Source: Candidatus Aenigmatarchaeota archaeon
GTDB taxonomy: Archaea > Aenigmatarchaeota > Aenigmatarchaeia > CG10238-14
NCBI GenBank assembly: GCA_030018415.1
Contig: JASEGC010000004.1
Span: forward strand, 10,470-74,469
Direction of reading: 5' to 3'
DNA: 64,000 bases
The position numbers and the translations under genes were made by a program. Under the pieces are notes generated by a model. That model saw only the letters and a list, made by a program, of their open reading frames with translations. It was not told the DNA's origin and searched no databases. Positions 13,271-60,515 of the stretch are shown here, one piece after another (the first letter of the stretch is position 1; each line of letters begins with the position of its first letter).

Positions 13271-13360
13271 GGGCCTGTAGCTCAGTTTGGATGCAAACGA
13301 GCCAAAAAGAGTAGGTGGCTTCTAACCACAAGGTCGAGGGTTCGAATCCCTTCAGGCCCA
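13271..13360 (+). tRNA. tRNA-Arg (anticodon TCT) with a ~15-nt non-canonical intron in the D-loop (model: intron 13293-13307)
   Basis: The 7-bp acceptor is GGGCCTG/CAGGCCC, the T-arm is GAGGG-TTCGAAT-CCCTT and the anticodon loop is CTTCTAA. The D-stem GCTC/GAGT only forms after removal of an insert between GGAT and AGAGT. The mature length would be 75 nt. Confidence 0.75.
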
Positions 13361-21215: not shown

Positions 21216-22883
21216 CTAAATCAAACCCAACAAATCAACACAAAACTCGCATGCAGCAACAGGCATCTCTAATTCCCAATTTTCGATGACAGAAGGATGA
21301 ATTTCCCCGAATCTACCAAGATTCTTTCCATCAACAACCACTTTAGCGCATCTTCCAGGAATAAAACAAGGTAGAGTAGATTCTTCAATCTTGTAAGCCT
21401 CTATACCTAAATTACTCAGAATGCTTTCAACCAAAGACTTTATTTCAGAAAAGTTTGCTTTCGAATGACATAACACAATTCCCAACTTTCTCACAGTTTT
21501 CGCTCCGGTATCAGAGTAAGGATCCAATTCGGTCACATCTCCAACCTCAAAAATATTCTGTGGGTATTCTCTATGTCTATTCCTCCAGAGTATTTCCATC
21601 AAACTTGGCAACAACCAATTCCTAACAATAGAATATTCTTCTGTTTTAGGATTAGCAGTTTCAATCACATCTTTTTCTTCCATCAACATCTTCTTGTATA
21701 AATTCTCTCTGTTGGTGAGCATGAAAGTAACAACTTCCTGTAAACCATATCCAACTAACAATGTCCTTAATTTTGTAGAAAATGTTTCCAAGGGATTTTC
21801 TTCTCCTATCGTCGATATGTTTGGAATCTCTGGTTCAAACCCATCATAACCATAAGCGATAGCGATATCTTCAACCAAATCTATCGCATGCATGATGTCA
21901 GTCCTGTAACAAGGAATAACGACTTGTAGGTTCTTTCCCACTTCAACTGCATCGAACCCCATCTTCTGTAAATACTCAATCATTTCATAATTCGTCAACT
22001 TCAATCCTAACAATTTGTTGACGTAGGTTGATTCTAAGTTCATCATACTCGTTTCAAGTTTAGGTGTTTCTATTTCTCTTTCGGGATATTTTATTTTGAC
22101 GAGTTGAATCCTCCCACCTCTATCAGCTAAGGAAGTTACGATAACATTCAAGACTTCATTTATAGTTTTCTCATCCATGCCAGTGATATCGATGAAAAGA
22201 TTCTTTGTTTTTTCTTCGACCATCGTGTGTATTGAGTTTATTATCGGGGGCATCGCCATGACTTTGTTGTCTGAATCCATCAGAATCGGATATCTGTCCA
22301 TTCCTTTCAAGATCCAACCGTAATCCTTTCCCTTTGAAGTGTGTTTTAGAATGTTATCTAGAGTCATTTCTTTTTGTTCTCCCAACGGAATGAATTTAAA
22401 TGAGGGGTCTTTAACTGTGTATAAAGCAGGAAACTTTACTTTGTCTAGATCATGCACACCTATTGCTGCTTTTCTTCTCTTTCTGCAATGAGTGATATGT
22501 AATTTTTCTTGTATCTGCATCAAGGATTTTATGAATTCATCTGTCATTTCAATTCCAGTCACAACGGCAGAGGCAATGTACGGTCTTATCGGTTTAGTTA
22601 CAGGATCGACTCTAACCATGTAAATAGATTTTTCGGCTTTGTAAGTCCTCAGTCCAGTTTTTATGTTCATGAACGATGAGAATGCTCTTGCAAGCCCTTC
22701 TACTGATAGCATGTCAGGCCTGTTGGGATTAACTTCAACTGAGAACTCATCTTTTTCTATACCTTCCCATCCCACCCCAAGCATCGGTAATTTTTCTTCT
22801 ATTTCTTTCATGGAGATATCTTTTCCTACGAGTTTACAGAAATCTTTTACATCAACAGTTATTACTGGCATAATTAAAATCAC
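21216..22883 (-). CDS. pheT: Phenylalanyl-tRNA synthetase beta subunit (archaeal)
   Basis: N-terminal MPVITVDVKDF...NPNRPDMLS (B3/4 domain pattern) and the archaeal PheT length. The likely true start is the internal MPVIT. Confidence 0.9.
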   Translation of the reverse strand: MILIMPVITVDVKDFCKLVGKDISMKEIEEKLPMLGVGWEGIEKDEFSVEVNPNRPDMLSVEGLARAFSSFMNIKTGLRTYKAEKSIYMVRVDPVTKPIRPYIASAVVTGIEMTDEFIKSLMQIQEKLHITHCRKRRKAAIGVHDLDKVKFPALYTVKDPSFKFIPLGEQKEMTLDNILKHTSKGKDYGWILKGMDRYPILMDSDNKVMAMPPIINSIHTMVEEKTKNLFIDITGMDEKTINEVLNVIVTSLADRGGRIQLVKIKYPEREIETPKLETSMMNLESTYVNKLLGLKLTNYEMIEYLQKMGFDAVEVGKNLQVVIPCYRTDIMHAIDLVEDIAIAYGYDGFEPEIPNISTIGEENPLETFSTKLRTLLVGYGLQEVVTFMLTNRENLYKKMLMEEKDVIETANPKTEEYSIVRNWLLPSLMEILWRNRHREYPQNIFEVGDVTELDPYSDTGAKTVRKLGIVLCHSKANFSEIKSLVESILSNLGIEAYKIEESTLPCFIPGRCAKVVVDGKNLGRFGEIHPSVIENWELEMPVAACEFCVDLLGLI

Positions 22884-53202: not shown

Positions 53203-54234
53203 ATGATTGGTATTGTGGGATATGGTGGATACATCCCGAGGTTCAGGATTAAAGTAGAAGAAATAGCATCTGTCTGGAATGCTGATGCTAAGGCTATTAA
53301 GAGTGGCCTGAACATAGAAGAAAAATCTGTTCCTTCGATGGATGAGGACACAGCGACGATAGCAGTAGAAGCTGCTTTAAACGCCTTAAAAATGGCTGAG
53401 ATTGATCCTAAAGAAATTGGCGCGATATACGTGGGTTCAGAATCACACCCTTACGCGGTCAAACCGACAGCCACGATAGTCGGGGAGGCGATAGGATGCG
53501 GGGCAGAATTCACTGCTGCAGACACAGAATTCGCCTGTAAAGCTGGAACAGCAGGGATACAGATGGTTATGGGACTGATAGAAGGTGGTTACATTAAGTT
53601 TGGTCTAGCGATAGGATCTGACACGGCTCAAAGCAAGCCTGGTGATGCTTTAGAATACACGGCATCAGCAGGTGGAGCAGCGTTCATACTCGGTAAGAAT
53701 AACGTAATAGGTGAGATAGAAGGAACCTTCTCTTTTTCGAGTGATACACCAGATTTCTGGAGAAGGGATGGGATTGAATACCCAAGCCATGGCGGTCGTT
53801 TCACTGGGATTCCTGCATATTTCAAGCACGTTGTTTCCGCAACACAAGGCTTGATGAAAAAACTCGGTTTAAAATCATCTGACTTTGATCATGTTGTTTT
53901 TCACATGCCCAACGGTAAGTTCCCGATAAATGCTGCGAAGATGTTGGGTTTTGACCTAGAAAAGTTGAAAGCAGGTTTTGTTGTTTCAAAGATAGGTAAC
54001 ACTTATTCTGCTTCATCCTTGCTTGGTTTAGCCGCGATTCTTGACGTCGCAAAGCCAGGTCAGAGGATACTGATCACATCCTACGGTTCTGGGGCTGGCA
54101 GTGATGCATTCAGCATAAAAGTCACTGATTTGGTGGAAGAAAAACGAAAAAAAACCAAGAAGATTCAGGATTACATCGACGATAAAGAATACGTCACTTA
54201 TGCCCATTACACGAGGTTGAGGAGAGGTATATGA
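53203..54234 (+). CDS. Hydroxymethylglutaryl-CoA synthase (archaeal type)
   Basis: [12 protein letters not shown]..., catalytic Cys context TEFACKAG, and a 4-nt overlap with the thiolase gene. Confidence 0.9.
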
Positions 54235-55382
54235 AGGTTGCTGTCATAGGCATCGGTGTAACCAAATTCGGGGAACATTGGGACAAGAACTTGAGAGAAC
54301 TGGCGATAGAGGCTGGAGCAAAGGCAATAATGGATGCAAATATCAGGGGTAGTGACATAGATGCCATCTATCTAGGCAACATGTCCGCTGGAAGGTTTGT
54401 GGGACAGGAGCATGTCGCAGCCTTAGTTTCAGGAGAATTAGGTCTGTCCATTCCTGCTGTGAGAGTTGAAGGTGCTTGTGCTTCTGGTGGTATTGCCCTA
54501 AGAGAGGGTATTTTTTCCATATTGTCTGGCCAGAATGATATAGTCCTAGTAGGTGGGGCTGAGAAGATGACTGATTTGATGACTGATGGTGTCACAACTG
54601 CCTTAATGGGAGCGGCCGATCAGGAATGGGAGGCTTACTATGGCCTAACATTCCCAAGCCTGTATGCGATGATTGCAAGAAGGCACATGTTCGAATTCGG
54701 GACGACAAGAGAACAGATGGCTAAGGTTGCCGTGAAAAACCATCATAACGGTTCTCTTAATCCTATAGCTCAGTTCAACAAAGAGATAACTGTTGAAGAA
54801 GTCTTGAACTCAACCATGGTCGCTGATCCTTTAACACTCTTGGATTGTTCTCCGATAACTGACGGTGCAGCTGCTTTAATACTTTGCAAGGCTGAATTGG
54901 CGAAGAAGTATACTGATGATCCTGTGTATATAATAGGTTCTGGTCAGGCATCTGATACTCTTGCCCTGCATGACAGACGTTCTTTAACGACGTTAGACGC
55001 GACCGTGAAAGCAGCTCGAGAAGCTTATAAACAGGCTGGGATTACTGTTAAAGATATAGATGTGGCTGAAGTCCATGATTGTTTTACTATAGCTGAGATA
55101 GTGGCAACAGAGGATTTAGGTTTTTGTAAGAAGGGTGAAGGTGGTAAGCTAATAGATGAAGGAGCAACAGAATTGAACGGAAGGATACCGATAAACACTT
55201 CTGGAGGCTTGAAAGCTGTAGGACATCCTGTCGGTGCGACTGGTATCAAACAAGCCGTAGAAATTGTTTTGCAATTAAGAGGACAGGCTGAAAAAAGACA
55301 AGTTAAGGATGCTAACATCGGGTTAACGCACAACGTTGGAGGTTCTGGAGCAACTGCTGTAGTCCACATATTCTCAAGGTGA
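54231..55382 (+). CDS. Acetyl-CoA acetyltransferase (thiolase)
   Basis: VEGACASGG (active-site Cys), C-terminal [10 protein letters not shown], 383 aa. Confidence 0.9.
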
Positions 55383-55386
55383 GATT

Positions 55387-55791
55387 ATGGGTCATGAATC
55401 TAGCGTTCCGTTGTTCTGGCGTTTGATTAAACCAAGGTATCAACTCATAGGAACTAAATGTACAAGTTGTGGTAATGTGTTCTATCCACCCAAATTTTTA
55501 TGTCCTGTCTGCAGAAAAGAAGGAAAGTTGGAAGAAATAAAGTTGAGGAAGACGGGAAAGATATTGACCTTTTCCATTATTCGTTCTGCCCCAGCGGGTT
55601 TTGAGAAAGAGACACCTTATCCTGTTGCGATAATAGAGTTGGATGATGGACCTAAGTTAACATCGCAAATAGTTGACTACAAAGAAGAAGATTTGAAGAT
55701 TGGAAGAAGGGTTGAGGCGTGCTTCAGAAGGATTTACACTGACGGGAAAGAAGGAATTATCAACTATGGTTTGAAGTTCAGGCCTGCATAA
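55387..55791 (+). CDS. DUF35 OB-fold/zinc-ribbon protein, partner of thiolase and HMG-CoA synthase
   Basis: The zinc ribbon is CTSCGNVFYPPKFLCPVC, followed by an OB-fold region. This is the canonical third gene of the archaeal trio. Confidence 0.85.
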   Translation: MGHESSVPLFWRLIKPRYQLIGTKCTSCGNVFYPPKFLCPVCRKEGKLEEIKLRKTGKILTFSIIRSAPAGFEKETPYPVAIIELDDGPKLTSQIVDYKEEDLKIGRRVEACFRRIYTDGKEGIINYGLKFRPA

Positions 55792-57117: not shown

Positions 57118-57867
57118 TTAGACTTTTAATCTGCTCATATGATAATCAGTTTTTCTATCCCAATAAGTTGGTAGTGTTAAACGGCATTTTTCTTCTAATG
57201 GGTAGTGTTCTCTGACACCATATGTCACAAAAAGTGATTCTTCGAGTAGTTTTGGACAATATTTCTTTAAACTTGACTTTAAACAATTTAATGCCTTTTC
57301 TTCCTCTGGCCACACTACTGACATAAAAAATGCTGGTTTGTTAAGACTATAACGGCTATAGTCCCTTTCTTCTAATGCATCTCCTTGGATTGTTCCTAAT
57401 TCAACGCCAGTTCTTTCAGTTATCAGCTTTTGAATATTTACCAATTCCTTAGAATATTCGACACCATAACTTCTTAGGCCGATTGAACTAGCAAAATATT
57501 GTATTCTACCATCACCAGCAAACAAATCCACAACTTCCGTTGCACCTAGGTCTCTTACTACTCTTGGTAATATCATTGCTGTTAGAATCCAAGCTGGCAT
57601 AAAAGGTTGGTCTTTATGCTTAAATCCTTCTGGCTGATTATAACTTACATTCAAGAATCTATGTCTCGAAAAATTAATACAATTATCATATTGTGGTTTT
57701 TTGACAACTGAATTTTCTCTCACAAATTTGATTATATAATCTACATCTTTCGGATGTATATCGAGTTCTGGGATAGACTCCATCGGAATGAGTTCCCCAC
57801 GAATAAGATTATTACTACAGAAATCTACAATATCTGAAACAAAACTTTGTGCATCTTCAATTTCCAT
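57118..57867 (-). CDS. Class I SAM-dependent methyltransferase (substrate unknown)
   Basis: Motif I-like VVDLFAGDGRIQYF followed by an acidic residue (GVEYS). Confidence 0.55.
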   Translation of the reverse strand: MEIEDAQSFVSDIVDFCSNNLIRGELIPMESIPELDIHPKDVDYIIKFVRENSVVKKPQYDNCINFSRHRFLNVSYNQPEGFKHKDQPFMPAWILTAMILPRVVRDLGATEVVDLFAGDGRIQYFASSIGLRSYGVEYSKELVNIQKLITERTGVELGTIQGDALEERDYSRYSLNKPAFFMSVVWPEEEKALNCLKSSLKKYCPKLLEESLFVTYGVREHYPLEEKCRLTLPTYWDRKTDYHMSRLKV

Positions 57868-57901: not shown

Positions 57902-57988
57902 TTATCCTGTCCAAACTTTTGCTTCTCTCAACTGTTTCAAGTCATTCCAGTACATCTCACGTATATCCTGTATGTTGTAATTGACCAT
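57902..57988 (-). pseudogene. Relic copy of the last 28 codons of pheS
   Basis: It translates to MVNYNIQDIREMYWNDLKQLREAKVWTG-stop. The functional PheS C-terminus is MINYGIEDIRMLYWNDLDHLRKAKIWLK-stop. 17 of 29 aligned positions are identical, the stops align, and a 12-nt block gtcattccagta is shared. Confidence 0.75.
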
Positions 57989-57991
57989 TTT

Positions 57992-58258
57992 TTATTCTGG
58001 CAACATCCAACAAGAACTATCACTATTGAAATTGTAAAAAGACTTTTCTTTTATTAAAATCTTCAATCTACATAACACTCTGATATAAGTTGACGTTGTT
58101 CTTTTCTTAATTTTTAACCGTTTAGCTAAATCATTAGCGGTGAATTTTTTCATTCGTCTTGATACATTTATAACTCTTTTGATTTTCGATCTAGGAAATA
58201 ATTTAGCTATCTCATCTACTCCAACACGAAATGAATTGATGTTACTTTTTTTCAACAA
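57992..58258 (-). CDS. HTH DNA-binding ORF, probably the former C-terminal domain of the LAGLIDADG protein
   Basis: The HTH pattern is FTANDLAKRLKIKKRTTSTYIRVLCRLKILI. It is in the same frame as the upstream LAGLIDADG fragment, separated only by a TAG, and in the same frame as the pheS relic, separated by TAA-AAA. Confidence 0.5.
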   Translation of the reverse strand: MLKKSNINSFRVGVDEIAKLFPRSKIKRVINVSRRMKKFTANDLAKRLKIKKRTTSTYIRVLCRLKILIKEKSFYNFNSDSSCWMLPE

Positions 58259-58315
58259 TTTTAGACAAATCTTTGTTCTAAACCATTTATCACTTCCACT
58301 TTCAAAGTATTTCAG

Positions 58316-58824
58316 CTATTTTTTATTTTCACCTATGCCTTTAACACTGTAAAATTCTCCCTTCTTTTTGATACACACATTGAGATTGTCTCTCTTTAGA
58401 ATATCATAGATCGATTCTGCGAGTTTTTTACTTCTAACAAATAAATCTTGGGTAAAATCAATTCCTATTGATCCATCAGATGTCAAAACACCTGTAGCGA
58501 AGGCCCTTCTCATACTTTTAGATGAGTTTTTTATGATTCCTGGCTCTTCTCCAATGTGAGGTTTATTTCCATAAGGAATTCCGAAAATTTTTGTAAAAAC
58601 CTGTATGAGTTCCATTCCCCTGAATTTCTCTTAATTATCAAATTGCCATCAGCTAAGTGAGCTCCCATTATTTTAGCTAAAGGAATCGTTAATTCTTTGA
58701 CAGCTTTTGCTCTATTTCCACCGCCAATATTCGTCGATAAGTATTCAACATTTTCCATAATTTTTTGTTTAATTTTATCTAATTCTTCTTCATTCACATT
58801 ACATACATCTTTGTATGTGTCCAA
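58316..58824 (-). pseudogene. Double-motif LAGLIDADG homing endonuclease gene, frameshifted
   Basis: Motif 1 is LAKIMGAHLADGNL (fragment 58531..58824). Motif 2 is RRAFATGVLTSDGSI (fragment 58316..58615). The two frames overlap around a C4 run (58617-58620). Confidence 0.75.
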
Positions 58825-58991
58825 TATCTTAATAACGACTGGTATGGGTACAGGGATATCCCGTTAAATAGGTTATAAATGCATGAATTTAATCTACTGT
58901 ATGATTTATAATTCAGTAAACTAGCTAACGTATGAGTTGTGATGAACGTTGAAAAGAAATAAGAATAATAGCGATCTAGAGTGAAAGAATC

Positions 58992-60515
58992 TTATTTTAG
59001 CCAGATTTTTGCTTTTCTGAGATGATCTAGGTCATTCCAGTAAAGCATACGAATATCTTCGATGCCATAGTTGATCATTACTAATCTCTCGAAACCAGGA
59101 CCCCATGCCAAGACAGGAATATCTTTTCCAAGTAGTGGTTTAACTACTTCTGGTCTGAACATGCCAGCACCACCTAATTCTACCCACTTTTTATGAGTAG
59201 GATGAAATACCTCTATCTCAGTCGACATTTCTGTGTATGGAAAGTAAGAGGGTCTAAATCTCGCTTTAGGGAAACCCAACTTCGTGAAAAATGTCTTCAA
59301 ATATCCTAATAAATGACGGAAAGTAACTTCTTCTCCAACAACAATACCATCAGTTTGATAGAATTCTGCTAAGTGTTGCCAATCTAAAGTCTCGTTTCTG
59401 AAACATCTACCGACAGAGAAATATTTTGCAGGTAAAGCTTCTTTATCAAGATCTTCTCTAAGTTTTGCCAGAGTTCGGGCTGATAATGACGTTGTATGCG
59501 TTCTCAAGATACACTCTTTTGATAATTCAGTATCCCATCTATACTGCCAGCCAGTGGAATTACAAGTCCACCCATACTCATGCGTGGCTTGAACTGCTTT
59601 CACTATTTCATCTCCTGGTAACTTTCCTTTTTCAGGTGTCTTCATGTAGAAAGTATCAGCCAAATCTCTTGCAGGATGATCGGCAGGTACATAAAGAGCA
59701 TCGAAATTCCAAAAAGAAATTTCTAAGATAGGACCAGTCATCTCTTTGAAGCCCATCTCGAGCCAGATTTGTCTTATGTATTCGATGACCTGAGTCATGT
59801 AGTGTTTCTTGCCTGGGTATACGTTCGCAGATGGTATAGAGATATCGTAAGGTCTCATAGGTTTTTTTCTCCACTCTTTAGAGATGATCATCTCAGGAGT
59901 CAACTGTCCGATTTCTTCTTTTATCTTAACTTTTGGTGAAATCTTCTTTCCTAAATCTGTCAAGGAGATGAATTTCTTACTTTCGATTCTTTTCTTTATC
60001 AAACCTCTCTTTTGAAGTTTGTTTAGAACATTTCCATCGAATTCATCAGAACGCTTCCTTCCAGATGCCAAGGCAGAGATGACCTTTTCTTCTGGTGTTT
60101 TTTTGGTCAAAACACTCTTTCCTTTACCTGTGATGTACAAGAATCCTTTTTTGATGTCAACCCAACCATTACTCTTAACCCAGACCAAACCGATAGAGAA
60201 TTTTTTCACTTTTTTTCTGAGATTCTCTATACTTCTCTCGCCTCTACTCACAAGAGTTATCAGATTTCTCTCTGGTAAACCATCTTTCAGGTATTCTAAT
60301 CCTTCTTTTGTCAGTTCAACGAACTCAGAGATATCTTCTTTTATGTTGACTGCGCCTTTAACTTTAGCCCAGAGCAAAGCCTTTTCTATCGCATCTTTAA
60401 CTAACCCAGTCTCTACTTCCAATTCTTGAACAGTAGCAGTCCCTTTATCCTCTAAAACCTTTATAATCCTCTTTTCATTCTCGTGTAATTTTTTAATTAT
60501 CTTTTCATCTGTCAT
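58992..60515 (-). CDS. pheS: Phenylalanyl-tRNA synthetase alpha subunit (archaeal)
   Basis: Class II motif 2 is GRCFRNETLD...H and motif 3 is GAGMFRPEV...GFERLVM. wHTH repeats are at the N-terminus. Confidence 0.95.
   Translation of the reverse strand: MTDEKIIKKLHENEKRIIKVLEDKGTATVQELEVETGLVKDAIEKALLWAKVKGAVNIKEDISEFVELTKEGLEYLKDGLPERNLITLVSRGERSIENLRKKVKKFSIGLVWVKSNGWVDIKKGFLYITGKGKSVLTKKTPEEKVISALASGRKRSDEFDGNVLNKLQKRGLIKKRIESKKFISLTDLGKKISPKVKIKEEIGQLTPEMIISKEWRKKPMRPYDISIPSANVYPGKKHYMTQVIEYIRQIWLEMGFKEMTGPILEISFWNFDALYVPADHPARDLADTFYMKTPEKGKLPGDEIVKAVQATHEYGWTCNSTGWQYRWDTELSKECILRTHTTSLSARTLAKLREDLDKEALPAKYFSVGRCFRNETLDWQHLAEFYQTDGIVVGEEVTFRHLLGYLKTFFTKLGFPKARFRPSYFPYTEMSTEIEVFHPTHKKWVELGGAGMFRPEVVKPLLGKDIPVLAWGPGFERLVMINYGIEDIRMLYWNDLDHLRKAKIWLK

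What the first reader, a model, noticed from the sequence alone, without database searches (positions are those of the whole stretch)
57989..58991. Degenerating LAGLIDADG homing-endonuclease cassette inserted at the pheS 3' end; three ORF pieces and the relic tail share one frame
Between the pheS stop (58992) and the relic tail lies a two-motif LAGLIDADG gene, with motifs LAKIMGAHLADGNL and FATGVLTSDGSI. It is split by a frameshift near a C4 run (58617-20). Its second half, the following HTH ORF and the pheS relic are all in the same reading frame, interrupted only by TAG (58316-18) and TAA-AAA (57989-94). The ancestral state was therefore probably one long endonuclease-HTH ORF running into the old pheS tail. 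The layout is host gene with imported tail, then endonuclease ORF, then displaced original tail. That layout matches what has been described for some organellar (fungal mitochondrial) homing-endonuclease ORFs that invade gene 3' ends rather than riding in introns or inteins. I am not aware of it being described for an archaeal chromosomal aminoacyl-tRNA synthetase gene. The lesions fit the late, decaying phase of the homing cycle.
Basis: partly seen in the sequence, partly recalled or inferred. Interest (0 to 1): 0.7.

Follow-up and report, generated by a model that had tools for sequence, protein, structure and literature searches.

The report
Decayed homing-endonuclease cassette at archaeal pheS end
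A selfish endonuclease gene, now broken, invaded the end of the phenylalanyl-tRNA synthetase gene of a DPANN archaeon and brought a replacement gene end with it, a habit previously described, as far as I could find, only in fungal mitochondria, and its relatives do the same to other archaeal genes.

Summary
On the minus strand, pheS (58992..60515) is followed by the wreck of a 416-aa ORF and then by an 87-nt relic pheS tail (57902..57988).

- **Relic versus working tail.** The relic is 100% aa and 95% nt identical to the working pheS tail of the closest ORF-less relatives, which are true empty sites. The tail pheS now uses is only 69% identical to the relic and groups with the tail of another occupied allele.
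- **Intact copies.** An intact ORF sits at the same place in five metagenome contigs.
- **Protein family.** Neither that ORF nor the window pieces hit Pfam LAGLIDADG. The family (366 clusters) does hit by profile, and an AF2 model (pLDDT 95.5) matches I-DmoI, PI-PkoII and PI-PfuI. Both catalytic acidic residues are kept in 50 of 50 members.
- **Transfer.** The last 0.5-0.75 kb of pheS switches phylogenetic partner, which is the signature of co-conversion.
- **Lesions.** The window copy carries four lesions, not two: a 218-nt 5' deletion, a 1-nt deletion, a 145-nt deletion (not a C4-run slip) and TGG>TAG.
- **Relatives.** Other family members flank duplicated ends of nre, ftsY and ydjM.

This is a new variant of a known kind. 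Cleavage is untested.

The parts
58992..60515 (-). pheS (phenylalanyl-tRNA synthetase alpha subunit, archaeal type, 507 aa), intact
   Evidence: Pfam tRNA-synt_2d at 5.9e-86. Orthologues are 67-82% identical in Aenigmatarchaeota MAGs.
58992..59743 (-). 3' part of pheS that shares ancestry with the other endonuclease-bearing allele (the co-conversion tract). Its 5' limit lies somewhere between about 59743 and 59516.
   Evidence: Quartet-informative sites switch from 70:11 for (window,L007|L001,L008) to 17:57 for (window,L001|L007,L008). Max chi-square is 63 and 0 of 1000 permutations reach it. dS to L001 is 1.0 here against 2.2 in the 5' part.
58992..59078 (-). Imported replacement tail of pheS (MINYGIEDIRMLYWNDLDHLRKAKIWLK*), the one now translated
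   Evidence: It is 69% nt identical to the relic, 66.7% to the L007 native tail and 81.6% to the working tail of L001 (alignment).
58935..58991 (-). Spacer between the pheS stop and the endonuclease remnant. It is homologous to the spacer of the intact cassette (shared GTTCATCACAACTC).
   Evidence: Alignment A4. Two Logan contigs of SRR23186779 meet here with a 30-nt overlap at 58943..58972.
58933..58934 (-). Lesion 1: junction of a 218-nt deletion that removed the promoter-proximal spacer, the start codon and about 55 codons
   Evidence: Alignment with L001. tblastn of P0001 begins at residue 56.
58863..58864 (-). Lesion 2: 1-nt deletion causing a frameshift in the N-terminal helical domain
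   Evidence: Alignment A4 column 356. The tblastn pieces change frame here.
58639..58680 (-). LAGLIDADG motif 1 (LAKIMGAHLADGNL). The catalytic Asp is retained.
   Evidence: The corresponding D150 is invariant in 50 of 50 family members.
58597..58598 (-). Lesion 3: junction of a 145-nt deletion between TTTAC repeats. It removes about 48 codons of the core of LAGLIDADG domain 1 and shifts the frame.
   Evidence: Alignment A4 columns 623-767.
58466..58501 (-). LAGLIDADG motif 2 (FATGVLTSDGSI). The Asp is retained. The conserved Phe is replaced by Ser.
   Evidence: Position 256 is D or E in 50 of 50 members and position 255 is F in 46 of 50.
58316..58318 (-). Lesion 4: nonsense codon TAG where the intact copy has TGG (Trp)
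57992..58315 (-). C-terminal winged-helix/HTH part of the endonuclease ORF, with its own stop codon TAA at 57992..57994
   Evidence: Weak HTH/MarR-type Pfam hits. 73.7% identity to P0001 residues 212-416. The family profile hits wHTH proteins in PDB. The same TAA ends the intact ORF.
57902..57988 (-). Relic (displaced native) pheS tail, MVNYNIQDIREMYWNDLKQLREAKVWTG*, untranslated
   Evidence: 100% aa and 95.4% nt identity to the L007 working tail, and 90.8% nt to L010.

Best explanation
The region is the decayed remnant of a free-standing, two-domain LAGLIDADG homing-endonuclease gene. It entered the chromosomal pheS gene of an Aenigmatarchaeota (DPANN) archaeon about 29 codons before the stop.

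The mobile unit is a cassette of three parts: a diverged replacement pheS tail with its stop codon, a short spacer with the ORF's own expression signals, and a 416-aa ORF. The ORF consists of an N-terminal helical domain, two LAGLIDADG core domains and a C-terminal winged helix.

Inferred mechanism:
1. The intact enzyme recognises the conserved sequence around codon 479 of endonuclease-free pheS alleles (...GFERLV|MVNYNIQ...) and cuts it.
2. The break is repaired from an occupied allele. Homology comes from the pheS body upstream and from the relic tail downstream.
3. The cassette is copied in together with 0.5-0.75 kb of upstream pheS (co-conversion).
4. pheS stays functional because it now ends in the imported tail. 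The occupied allele is immune because the target is split and the imported tail differs at 13 of 42 positions around the junction (my own count by eye on alignment A3; not computed). The native tail is left behind as an untranslated relic.
5. After fixation nothing maintains the endonuclease. In this genome it has acquired four inactivating lesions.

Shown here: the anatomy, the family and fold, the empty and intact alleles, the mosaic pheS and the lesions. Inferred: cleavage, the exact target and the repair pathway.
For: **Anatomy and duplication:**

**Intact copies and empty sites**
- The intact 416-aa homologue P0001 sits at the same place after pheS. A relic tail follows the same TAA. It is seen in five contigs from five samples.
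- The ORF is absent from all 80 pheS loci fetched from GTDB genomes, including the closest relatives at 67-82% pheS identity.
- The window relic equals the native tail of L007 and L010. The L001 relic ends like the tail of its own nearest relative, L008 (KLWI-).
- Four more native-type tails were found among close pheS proteins, and no further imported-type tail.

**LAGLIDADG identity**
- 366 representative clusters at E<=1e-3.
- 29 of 50 members hit LAGLIDADG_3.
- The family profile hits PI-PfuI, TliVMA, PI-PkoII, I-Tsp061I and I-DmoI.
- AF2 model with pLDDT 95.5 and pTM 0.93.
- Foldseek probability 1.0 and TM 0.70-0.73 to I-DmoI.
- D150 and D/E256 are conserved in 50 of 50 members.

**Horizontal movement with co-conversion**
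- Recombination breakpoint in pheS.
- dS of the ORF (0.5-0.9) matches the pheS 3' part (1.0), not the 5' part (2.2).

**Decay:** lesions, and dN/dS of 0.17-0.26.

**The same lesions in a second assembly:** L171, 99.97% identical to the window.

**The habit is general in the family**
- P0003 (44% identical to P0001) also sits directly after pheS.
- Duplicated gene ends flank members next to nre, ftsY and ydjM. 9 of 67 loci score z>6.5.

**Precedent:** fungal mitochondria (PMC3630166).
Against: - No cleavage assay exists for any member of this family, so nuclease activity and target are inferred.
- The window pieces and P0001 itself do not reach any Pfam, NCBIfam or PDB sequence match on their own.
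- WhiA, a non-catalytic LAGLIDADG-plus-HTH regulator, is also among the fold hits.
- The donor lineage with the imported tail as its native tail was not found.
- The recombination signal rests on four sequences from MAGs and contigs. It could in principle come from recombination unrelated to the endonuclease.
- In the only other assembly of this population, the pheS contig and the remnant contig meet at a graph branch point with just 30 nt of overlap.
Confidence: 0.85

Rival explanations
1. Domesticated or never-mobile DNA-binding protein. The ORF would be a WhiA-like LAGLIDADG-plus-HTH regulator, for example of pheS/pheT expression. It happens to lie after pheS and has been lost in this genome. 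The tail duplication would be a by-product of a local rearrangement.
For: - WhiA structures (8dy9, 3hyi) are among the Foldseek hits.
- The C-terminal wHTH and the N-terminal helical domain add DNA-binding modules.
- Two lineages only 44% identical both sit after pheS.
Against: - Both catalytic acidic residues are kept in 50 of 50 diverse members, whereas WhiA lacks them (the WhiA point is my own knowledge).
- Presence/absence polymorphism occurs among close relatives, with precise replacement of the tail.
- pheS is mosaic.
- Relatives sit at the ends of unrelated genes (nre, ftsY, ydjM), in both orientations.
- The gene is dispensable here.
Confidence: 0.07
2. In-situ tandem duplication of the pheS 3' end followed by divergence. 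An unrelated gene later landed between the copies. There was no import of a foreign tail and no homing.
For: The two tails are homologous and share a 12-nt identical core.
Against: - The relic has stayed identical in protein to the relatives' native tail, and all 4 nt differences from L007 are synonymous.
- The working tail groups with the tail of a different lineage's occupied allele: 81.6% against 69%.
- The switch of phylogenetic partner extends 0.5-0.75 kb upstream of the duplication.
- The same ORF-relic junction (CCAGAATAAAAAAT) is found in two pheS backgrounds.
Confidence: 0.03
3. Remnant of an intein or intron. The endonuclease would once have been part of a self-splicing element inside pheS, and the present layout is what remains after loss of the splicing parts.
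For: - The best structural and profile matches are intein-borne endonucleases (PI-PkoII, TliVMA, PI-PfuI).
- The ORF and the relic are in the same frame in the window, in L001 and, for nre, in L099.
Against: - pheS has its own stop codon, and a 57-90 nt spacer precedes the ORF in every copy.
- The intact ORF has its own start and a 115-aa N-terminal domain.
- No Hint or intein Pfam hit appears in 50 members.
- No Rfam intron family is found in the window.
- An intein would not need a duplicated host tail.
Confidence: 0.03
4. Assembly chimera. The pheS contig and the remnant-plus-relic contig were wrongly joined.
For: In the Logan assembly of SRR23186779 the two parts are separate contigs that share only a 30-nt (k-1) overlap at 58943..58972. 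That marks a branch in the assembly graph.
Against: - The spacer on both sides of that overlap aligns with the spacer of L001, where pheS, spacer and intact ORF are contiguous in four independent assemblies.
- The remnant contig carries the relic pheS tail, which makes sense only next to pheS.
- Both Logan contigs are 99.97-100% identical to the window.
Confidence: 0.02

Closest known systems
Mobile endonuclease ORFs (mORFs) that create 'gene hybrids' in fungal mitochondria: Allomyces macrogynus atp6; Glomus sp. atp6, atp9, cox2 and nad3; Rhizopus oryzae atp9; Mortierella cox2 (PMC3630166, which cites Paquin et al. 1994)
   Same: The layout is identical: host gene body, inserted foreign C-terminal, LAGLIDADG (or GIY-YIG) ORF, then the native C-terminal left as a relic. 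The relic is nearly identical to the close relative's tail (91-98% nt there, 95% here). The inserted tail is divergent (64-81% there, 69% here). Horizontal origin is inferred in the same way.
   Different: Here the host is an archaeal chromosome, not an organelle, and the target is an aminoacyl-tRNA synthetase gene. The ORF is separated from the host gene by a stop codon and a spacer rather than fused in phase. The endonuclease belongs to a different, larger architecture (N-terminal helical domain plus C-terminal winged helix) related to archaeal intein and intron enzymes.
Archaeal two-domain LAGLIDADG endonucleases: I-DmoI and I-Tsp061I (rRNA introns); PI-PfuI, PI-PkoII and TliVMA/PhoVMA (inteins)
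   Same: They share the fold of two LAGLIDADG core domains in one chain (Foldseek TM 0.70-0.73 to I-DmoI; profile E 2.7e-14 to PI-PfuI). One acidic residue ends each LAGLIDADG helix.
   Different: Those enzymes ride in self-splicing introns or inteins, which make the insertion harmless. This one is free-standing and makes the insertion harmless by carrying a spare gene end. Sequence identity is only 13-20%. It has extra N- and C-terminal domains.
Free-standing homing endonucleases of T4-like phages (seg and mob genes; 'intronless homing'). Stated from my own knowledge; the review PMC2988022 was listed but not read.
   Same: A free-standing endonuclease gene spreads by break repair with co-conversion of flanking markers. 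Immunity of the carrier comes through sequence differences at the target.
   Different: Those are GIY-YIG or HNH enzymes that sit between genes of phage genomes. No replacement gene end and no relic is involved.
WhiA (bacterial LAGLIDADG-plus-HTH transcription factor)
   Same: Two LAGLIDADG-like domains are followed by a C-terminal helix-turn-helix. It appears among the Foldseek hits (8dy9, 3hyi).
   Different: WhiA has lost the catalytic acidic residues and is a conserved host gene (own knowledge). Here both acidic residues are kept in 50 of 50 members, and the gene is patchily present and decays.

Membership tests
LAGLIDADG homing endonucleases (single-chain, two-domain type) | Two LAGLIDADG helices, each ending in a conserved acidic residue (Asp/Glu) followed by Gly | tested here: met
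   The window has GAHLADG and VLTSDG. In the family alignment D150 is 50/50, G151 is 50/50 and position 256 is D 39 / E 11.
LAGLIDADG homing endonucleases (single-chain, two-domain type) | Alpha-beta-beta-alpha-beta-beta-alpha core fold, present twice | tested here: met
   Met for the intact homologue P0001: AF2 pLDDT 95.5, and Foldseek to I-DmoI gives probability 1.0 and TM 0.70-0.73. The window copy itself has lost about 48 codons of domain 1, so it can no longer form the fold.
LAGLIDADG homing endonucleases (single-chain, two-domain type) | Match to a curated LAGLIDADG sequence profile | tested here: inconclusive
   The window pieces and P0001 give no hit. 29 of 50 family members hit PF14528 LAGLIDADG_3 (best 7.2e-10), 4 hit LAGLIDADG_WhiA and 2 hit the PI-PfuI subdomain. 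The family profile hits PDB LAGLIDADG enzymes down to 2.7e-14.
LAGLIDADG homing endonucleases (single-chain, two-domain type) | Site-specific double-strand cleavage of the element-free allele | not testable with these tools
   Needs expression of the intact ORF (L001 4102..5352) and an in-vitro cleavage assay on L007/L010/L008-type pheS DNA.
Homing (mobile) genetic element | Presence/absence polymorphism at one precise site in a conserved gene among close relatives | tested here: met
   Occupied: the window and L001-L005. Empty: L007, L010, L008 and L009, plus four further native-type tails.
Homing (mobile) genetic element | Co-conversion of flanking host sequence, seen as phylogenetic discordance next to the element | tested here: met
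   Breakpoint within pheS. Informative sites go from 70:11 to 17:57, and 0 of 1000 permutations reach the observed chi-square. dS pattern.
mORF-type gene hybrid (C-terminal replacement) | Host gene ends in a foreign tail, and the native tail persists downstream of the endonuclease ORF | tested here: met
mORF-type gene hybrid (C-terminal replacement) | The relic is more similar to the relatives' native tail than to the inserted tail | tested here: met
   95.4% and 90.8% to L007 and L010, against 69.0% to the window's own working tail.
mORF-type gene hybrid (C-terminal replacement) | The relic tail is not expressed as protein and the hybrid gene is expressed | not testable with these tools
   Needs transcriptome or proteome data. 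From the sequence alone, the relic follows the ORF's TAA and has no start context of its own.
Intein | In-frame insertion within the host protein, flanked by Hint splicing blocks, with no stop codon between host and element | tested here: not met
   The pheS stop at 58992..58994 and a spacer precede the ORF. No Hint or intein family appears among the Pfam hits of 50 members.
Group I/II or archaeal bulge-helix-bulge intron | An RNA structure that is spliced out of the host transcript | tested here: not met
   No Rfam family other than two tRNAs reaches threshold in the window. The insertion lies after a complete coding sequence and so needs no splicing.
WhiA-like regulators | LAGLIDADG-like domains without catalytic acidic residues; conserved single-copy host gene | tested here: not met
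   The acidic residues are kept in 50 of 50 members. The gene is patchy and pseudogenised.

The most novel reading that the evidence does not exclude
A large, unannotated family of free-standing LAGLIDADG endonucleases (366 clusters at 50% identity) spreads through archaeal, mostly DPANN, chromosomes. It homes into the ends of conserved protein-coding genes: pheS, the DNA-repair gene nre, ftsY and ydjM. Each element carries a spare copy of the gene end, usually the 3' end, once the 5' end, and in either orientation. This would be a third way for a homing endonuclease to enter a coding region harmlessly, besides introns and inteins. It has been described only in fungal mitochondria so far.
Probability: 0.6. 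Interest if true: 0.75.

Novelty: new variant of a known kind. Interest (0 to 1): 0.68.

Why it matters
- **Where free-standing endonucleases can go.** The introduction of a 2026 paper on LAGLIDADG homing endonucleases (PMC13619312) states that free-standing homing endonuclease genes are generally limited to intergenic targets, because they would otherwise break the host gene. This locus and its relatives show a working alternative in cellular chromosomes of archaea: the element brings its own copy of the gene end.
- **A marker of gene flow.** The pheS alleles here are mosaics with 0.5-0.75 kb of foreign sequence. That gives a natural, datable marker of DNA exchange between DPANN lineages, whose capacity for recombination is poorly known.
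- **Phylogeny.** aaRS genes used as phylogenetic markers can be chimeric for this reason.
- **A pool of new enzymes.** The family offers hundreds of untested rare-cutting enzymes whose targets can be read directly from the empty sites.
- **Annotation.** Short 'orphan' ORFs and duplicated gene ends next to such cassettes should be called as relics.

Tried and rejected
- **Direct searches of the window pieces.** Pfam on the three pieces and on a spliced construct gave no LAGLIDADG hit, only faint HTH hits. phmmer of the spliced construct against PDB gave nothing meaningful. NCBIfam on four family members gave nothing above noise.
- **C4-run slip as the cause of the frame change.** Rejected. The homologous stretch has equal length in L001, and the real cause is the 145-nt deletion.
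- **Ancestral read-through of the ORF into the pheS tail.** Rejected for this lineage, because the intact copies keep the TAA. The shared frame of ORF and relic recurs in L001 and L099. With a one-in-three chance each and shared ancestry, that is not significant.
- **Metagenome scan with the 50-sequence alignment.** It failed because no stretch was conserved enough. It was repeated with six sequences.
- **Donor of the imported tail.** The search among 80 GTDB pheS loci and 120 listed pheS proteins found none.
- **Downstream synteny between the window and L007/L010.** Not conserved, so the empty-site argument rests on pheS itself and on the upstream 433-aa gene (78.6% identity in L007).
- **Other copies.** tblastn found no other copy of the endonuclease family in the window.
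- **The P0003/L087 locus.** No close endonuclease-free relative was among the fetched loci, so its relic was not resolved.
Full report
**1. What is in the sequence**

All features are on the minus strand. pheS occupies 58992..60515 (507 aa, Pfam tRNA-synt_2d 5.9e-86). After its stop come three short ORFs:
- 58531..58824, carrying LAKIMGAHLADGNL
- 58316..58615, carrying FATGVLTSDGSI
- 57992..58258, HTH-like

Then come TAA-AAA and an 87-nt stretch (57902..57988) that reads MVNYNIQDIREMYWNDLKQLREAKVWTG*. That peptide is clearly homologous to the end of pheS, MINYGIEDIRMLYWNDLDHLRKAKIWLK*. The local alignment of the two scores 108. In 200 codon shuffles the score was 29.4 +/- 4.0, with a maximum of 55. 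The 12-nt core TACTGGAATGAC occurs nowhere else in the window.

**2. An intact copy exists, and the window copy is more damaged than reported**

A protein search with the spliced pieces found P0001, a 416-aa protein. tblastn puts it at 63-74% identity to the window pieces. P0001 is encoded directly after pheS on five contigs from five samples (L001-L005). There too, a pheS-tail relic (KIIDIRELYWNDLKQLREAKLWIK*) follows the ORF's TAA in the same frame.

Aligning the window with L001 shows four inactivating lesions:
1. A 218-nt deletion at 58934/58933. It removed part of the spacer, the start codon and about 55 codons.
2. A 1-nt deletion at 58864/58863.
3. A 145-nt deletion at about 58598/58597 between TTTAC repeats. 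It takes out about 48 codons of the first LAGLIDADG domain and shifts the frame.
4. TGG>TAG at 58316..58318.

The C4 run at 58617..58620 is not involved. The TAA at 57992..57994 is the ORF's own stop, so the ORF did not originally run into the pheS tail.

A second assembly of the same population (Logan, SRR23186779) carries the same remnant at 99.97% identity. In that assembly the pheS contig and the remnant contig meet at a 30-nt overlap (58943..58972). This is a graph branch that I could not resolve. The spacer on both sides of it aligns with the contiguous L001 spacer, so a chimera is very unlikely.

**3. What the protein is**

Neither the window pieces nor P0001 hit Pfam, NCBIfam or PDB sequences directly. 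An exhaustive HMMER search with P0001 found 366 representative clusters at E<=1e-3. The evidence from 50 aligned members is:
- 29 hit Pfam LAGLIDADG_3, with a best E-value of 7.2e-10.
- Their profile hits solved LAGLIDADG enzymes: PI-PfuI 2.7e-14, TliVMA 1.3e-12, PI-PkoII 1.9e-7, I-Tsp061I 1.3e-6 and I-DmoI about 5e-5. Its C-terminal part hits winged-helix regulators weakly.
- An AlphaFold2 model of P0001 built on this alignment is confident (pLDDT 95.5, pTM 0.93).
- The model matches PI-PkoII, TliVMA, I-DmoI (TM 0.70-0.73 on the target) and I-Tsp061I with probability 1.0. It also matches WhiA, less well.
- The acidic residue ending each LAGLIDADG helix is kept in all 50 members: D150 in 50/50, and D or E at 256 in 50/50.

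I therefore file the family as two-domain LAGLIDADG endonucleases with an extra N-terminal helical domain (about 115 aa) and a C-terminal winged helix. Catalysis is inferred, not shown.

**4. Empty sites and the origin of the two tails**

A scan of one genome per GTDB species with the window's pheS returned 80 loci. None encodes the ORF. The closest are Aenigmatarchaeota-type MAGs, so the window is a DPANN archaeon of that group. Their pheS identities to the window are:

| Locus | pheS identity |
|---|---|
| L010 | 82% (partial gene) |
| L007 | 79% |
| L008 | 72% |
| L009 | 67% |

In L007 and L010, pheS ends in exactly the window's relic peptide. Nucleotide identity of the relic is 95.4% to L007, where all four differences are synonymous, and 90.8% to L010. 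The tail that the window's pheS now uses is 69.0% identical to its own relic and 66.7% to L007, but 81.6% to the working tail of L001.

The L001 relic ends KLWIK, like the native tail of its own nearest relative L008 (KLWIS), not like L007 (KVWTG). Both occupied alleles share the same ORF-relic junction, CCAGAATAAAAAAT. A further protein search found four more native-type tails and no other imported-type tail.

So the relic is the native tail. The working tail came in with the ORF. Two different pheS backgrounds were invaded.

**5. Evidence of horizontal movement with co-conversion**

I built a codon alignment of pheS from the window, L001, L007 and L008.
- The first ~770 nt support (window,L007 | L001,L008) by 70 informative sites to 11.
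- The remainder supports (window,L001 | L007,L008) by 57 to 17.
- The maximum chi-square is 63, and none of 1000 permutations reaches it.
- In 150-nt bins the two signals are level (6:6) in 751-900 and the switch is complete by about nt 1050. The tract therefore begins at window coordinate about 59743-59516.

Synonymous divergence between the window and L001 fits this picture. It is 2.2 in pheS codons 1-320, 1.0 in codons 321-507, and 0.5-0.9 in the endonuclease remnant. The endonuclease and the last 0.5-0.75 kb of pheS therefore share a younger common ancestor than the rest of the gene. This is what break repair from an occupied donor predicts. dN/dS of the remnant against the intact copy is 0.17-0.26. 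Most of the divergence happened under selection, and the window's decay is recent.

**6. Mechanism (inferred)**

- The enzyme should recognise the conserved stretch of empty alleles spanning the junction (L007: GGGTTTGAAAGGTTGGTT|ATGGTCAATTATAACATACAGG).
- In occupied alleles this stretch is split by the cassette. At the working tail it differs at 13 of 42 positions. That count is my own, made by eye on alignment A3, not computed.
- Repair uses the pheS body on one side and the relic on the other.
- The replacement tail keeps pheS intact, which stands in for the splicing that introns and inteins provide.
- After fixation the endonuclease decays, as seen here.

**7. The habit is general in the family**

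P0003 is 44% identical to P0001. It sits 4 nt after a 439-aa pheS in a 527-kb contig, followed by a 172-aa ORF and pheT. A metagenome scan gave 80 further loci, and only the P0001 and P0003 lineages are next to pheS.

I ran a six-frame test for similar peptides on the two sides of the endonuclease gene. 9 of 67 testable loci scored z>6.5. The flanked genes were identified by Pfam:

| Flanked gene | Loci | Note |
|---|---|---|
| pheS | L091 | Same contig as L002 |
| nre, 3' end (Nre_N + Nre_C) | L099, L137, L135, L142, L124 | Endonuclease on the same strand (L099, L137) or the opposite strand (L135, L142, L124) |
| ftsY-like gene, 3' end (SRP54 GTPase domain) | L126 | |
| ydjM-like gene, 5' end | L102 | The relic head lies upstream of the endonuclease |
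| Not identified | L162 | z 7.1 |

Gene-end replacement is therefore a recurrent strategy of this family.

**8. Comparison with what is known**

The layout is that of the mobile-ORF 'gene hybrids' of fungal mitochondria: Allomyces macrogynus atp6, and Glomus atp6, atp9, cox2 and nad3. There an inserted C-terminal and a LAGLIDADG or GIY-YIG ORF displace the native C-terminal, which stays close to that of the sister species (PMC3630166).

The differences here are:
- an archaeal chromosome rather than an organelle
- an aaRS gene as the target
- a stop codon and spacer instead of an in-phase fusion
- a different endonuclease architecture, related to archaeal intein and intron enzymes

Seven full-text searches found no description of such an arrangement in archaea or bacteria. 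The library lacks most subscription journals, so this is not proof of absence. The introduction of a 2026 paper on LAGLIDADG homing endonucleases still says that free-standing homing endonuclease genes are generally limited to intergenic sites (PMC13619312).

**9. Verdict**

The number and nature of the lesions and the supposed ancestral read-through need correcting. It is a new variant of a known kind. Its value lies less in this one pseudogene than in what it led to: intact copies, empty sites, measurable co-conversion, and a large unannotated endonuclease family using the same trick on several archaeal genes. The missing piece is biochemical, namely cleavage of the empty site.

Noticed in passing
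window 13271..13360 (+): A 90-nt tRNA is called by Rfam (58 bits) but not by ARAGORN, even with the intron option. About 17 extra nucleotides follow the D-arm region, which suggests an intron or insert at a non-canonical position.
   Followed up: partly
window 53203..55791 (+): Three adjacent genes read like HMG-CoA synthase (343 aa), thiolase (383 aa) and a DUF35-type zinc-ribbon/OB protein (134 aa). They lie in a block of 0.42-0.47 GC, against 0.30-0.35 around it. The names are my own reading and were not profile-tested.
   Followed up: no
L087 5980..7770 (contig Ga0315282_10000011, 527 kb): pheS, endonuclease P0003, a 172-aa weak-HD ORF and pheT are packed with 4, 0 and 0 nt between them. 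The ends of the endonuclease ORF (CTGGTGAAATAAATG) and of the 172-aa ORF (ATGGTGAAATAAATG) repeat each other and resemble the pheS end (ATGGTAAAGTGA). This looks like two successive insertions at the pheS/pheT junction. In L013, pheS is directly followed by pheT.
   Followed up: partly
L102 3620..5456: Mirror-image case. A family member is preceded by a stop-containing relic of the 5' head (MMARTHLAFGF...) of the ydjM-like gene, and that gene starts by overlapping the endonuclease's end (MLYRTHLAFGL...). The element appears to carry a replacement gene start rather than a gene end.
   Followed up: partly
L135 2100..4893 and L142; L126 3280..6153: Family members lie tail-to-tail (antiparallel) with nre or an ftsY-like gene. 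The relic tail lies on the far side of the endonuclease, so orientation relative to the host gene is not fixed.
   Followed up: partly
window 58943..58972: Two contigs of the Logan assembly of SRR23186779 end and begin here with exactly 30 nt of overlap. That marks a branch in the assembly graph within the spacer just upstream of the 218-nt deletion. It may reflect a coexisting variant allele in the population.
   Followed up: partly
window 57118..57867 (-): A 249-aa ORF starts 35 nt after the relic tail. It has only faint methyltransferase-like hits and is not found next to pheS in L007 or L010. Downstream synteny is not conserved, whereas the upstream 433-aa amine-oxidase-like gene is.
   Followed up: partly
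window 21234..22871 (-): pheT lies about 36 kb from pheS in this genome, whereas the two genes are adjacent in L013 and flank the insertion in L087.
   Followed up: no
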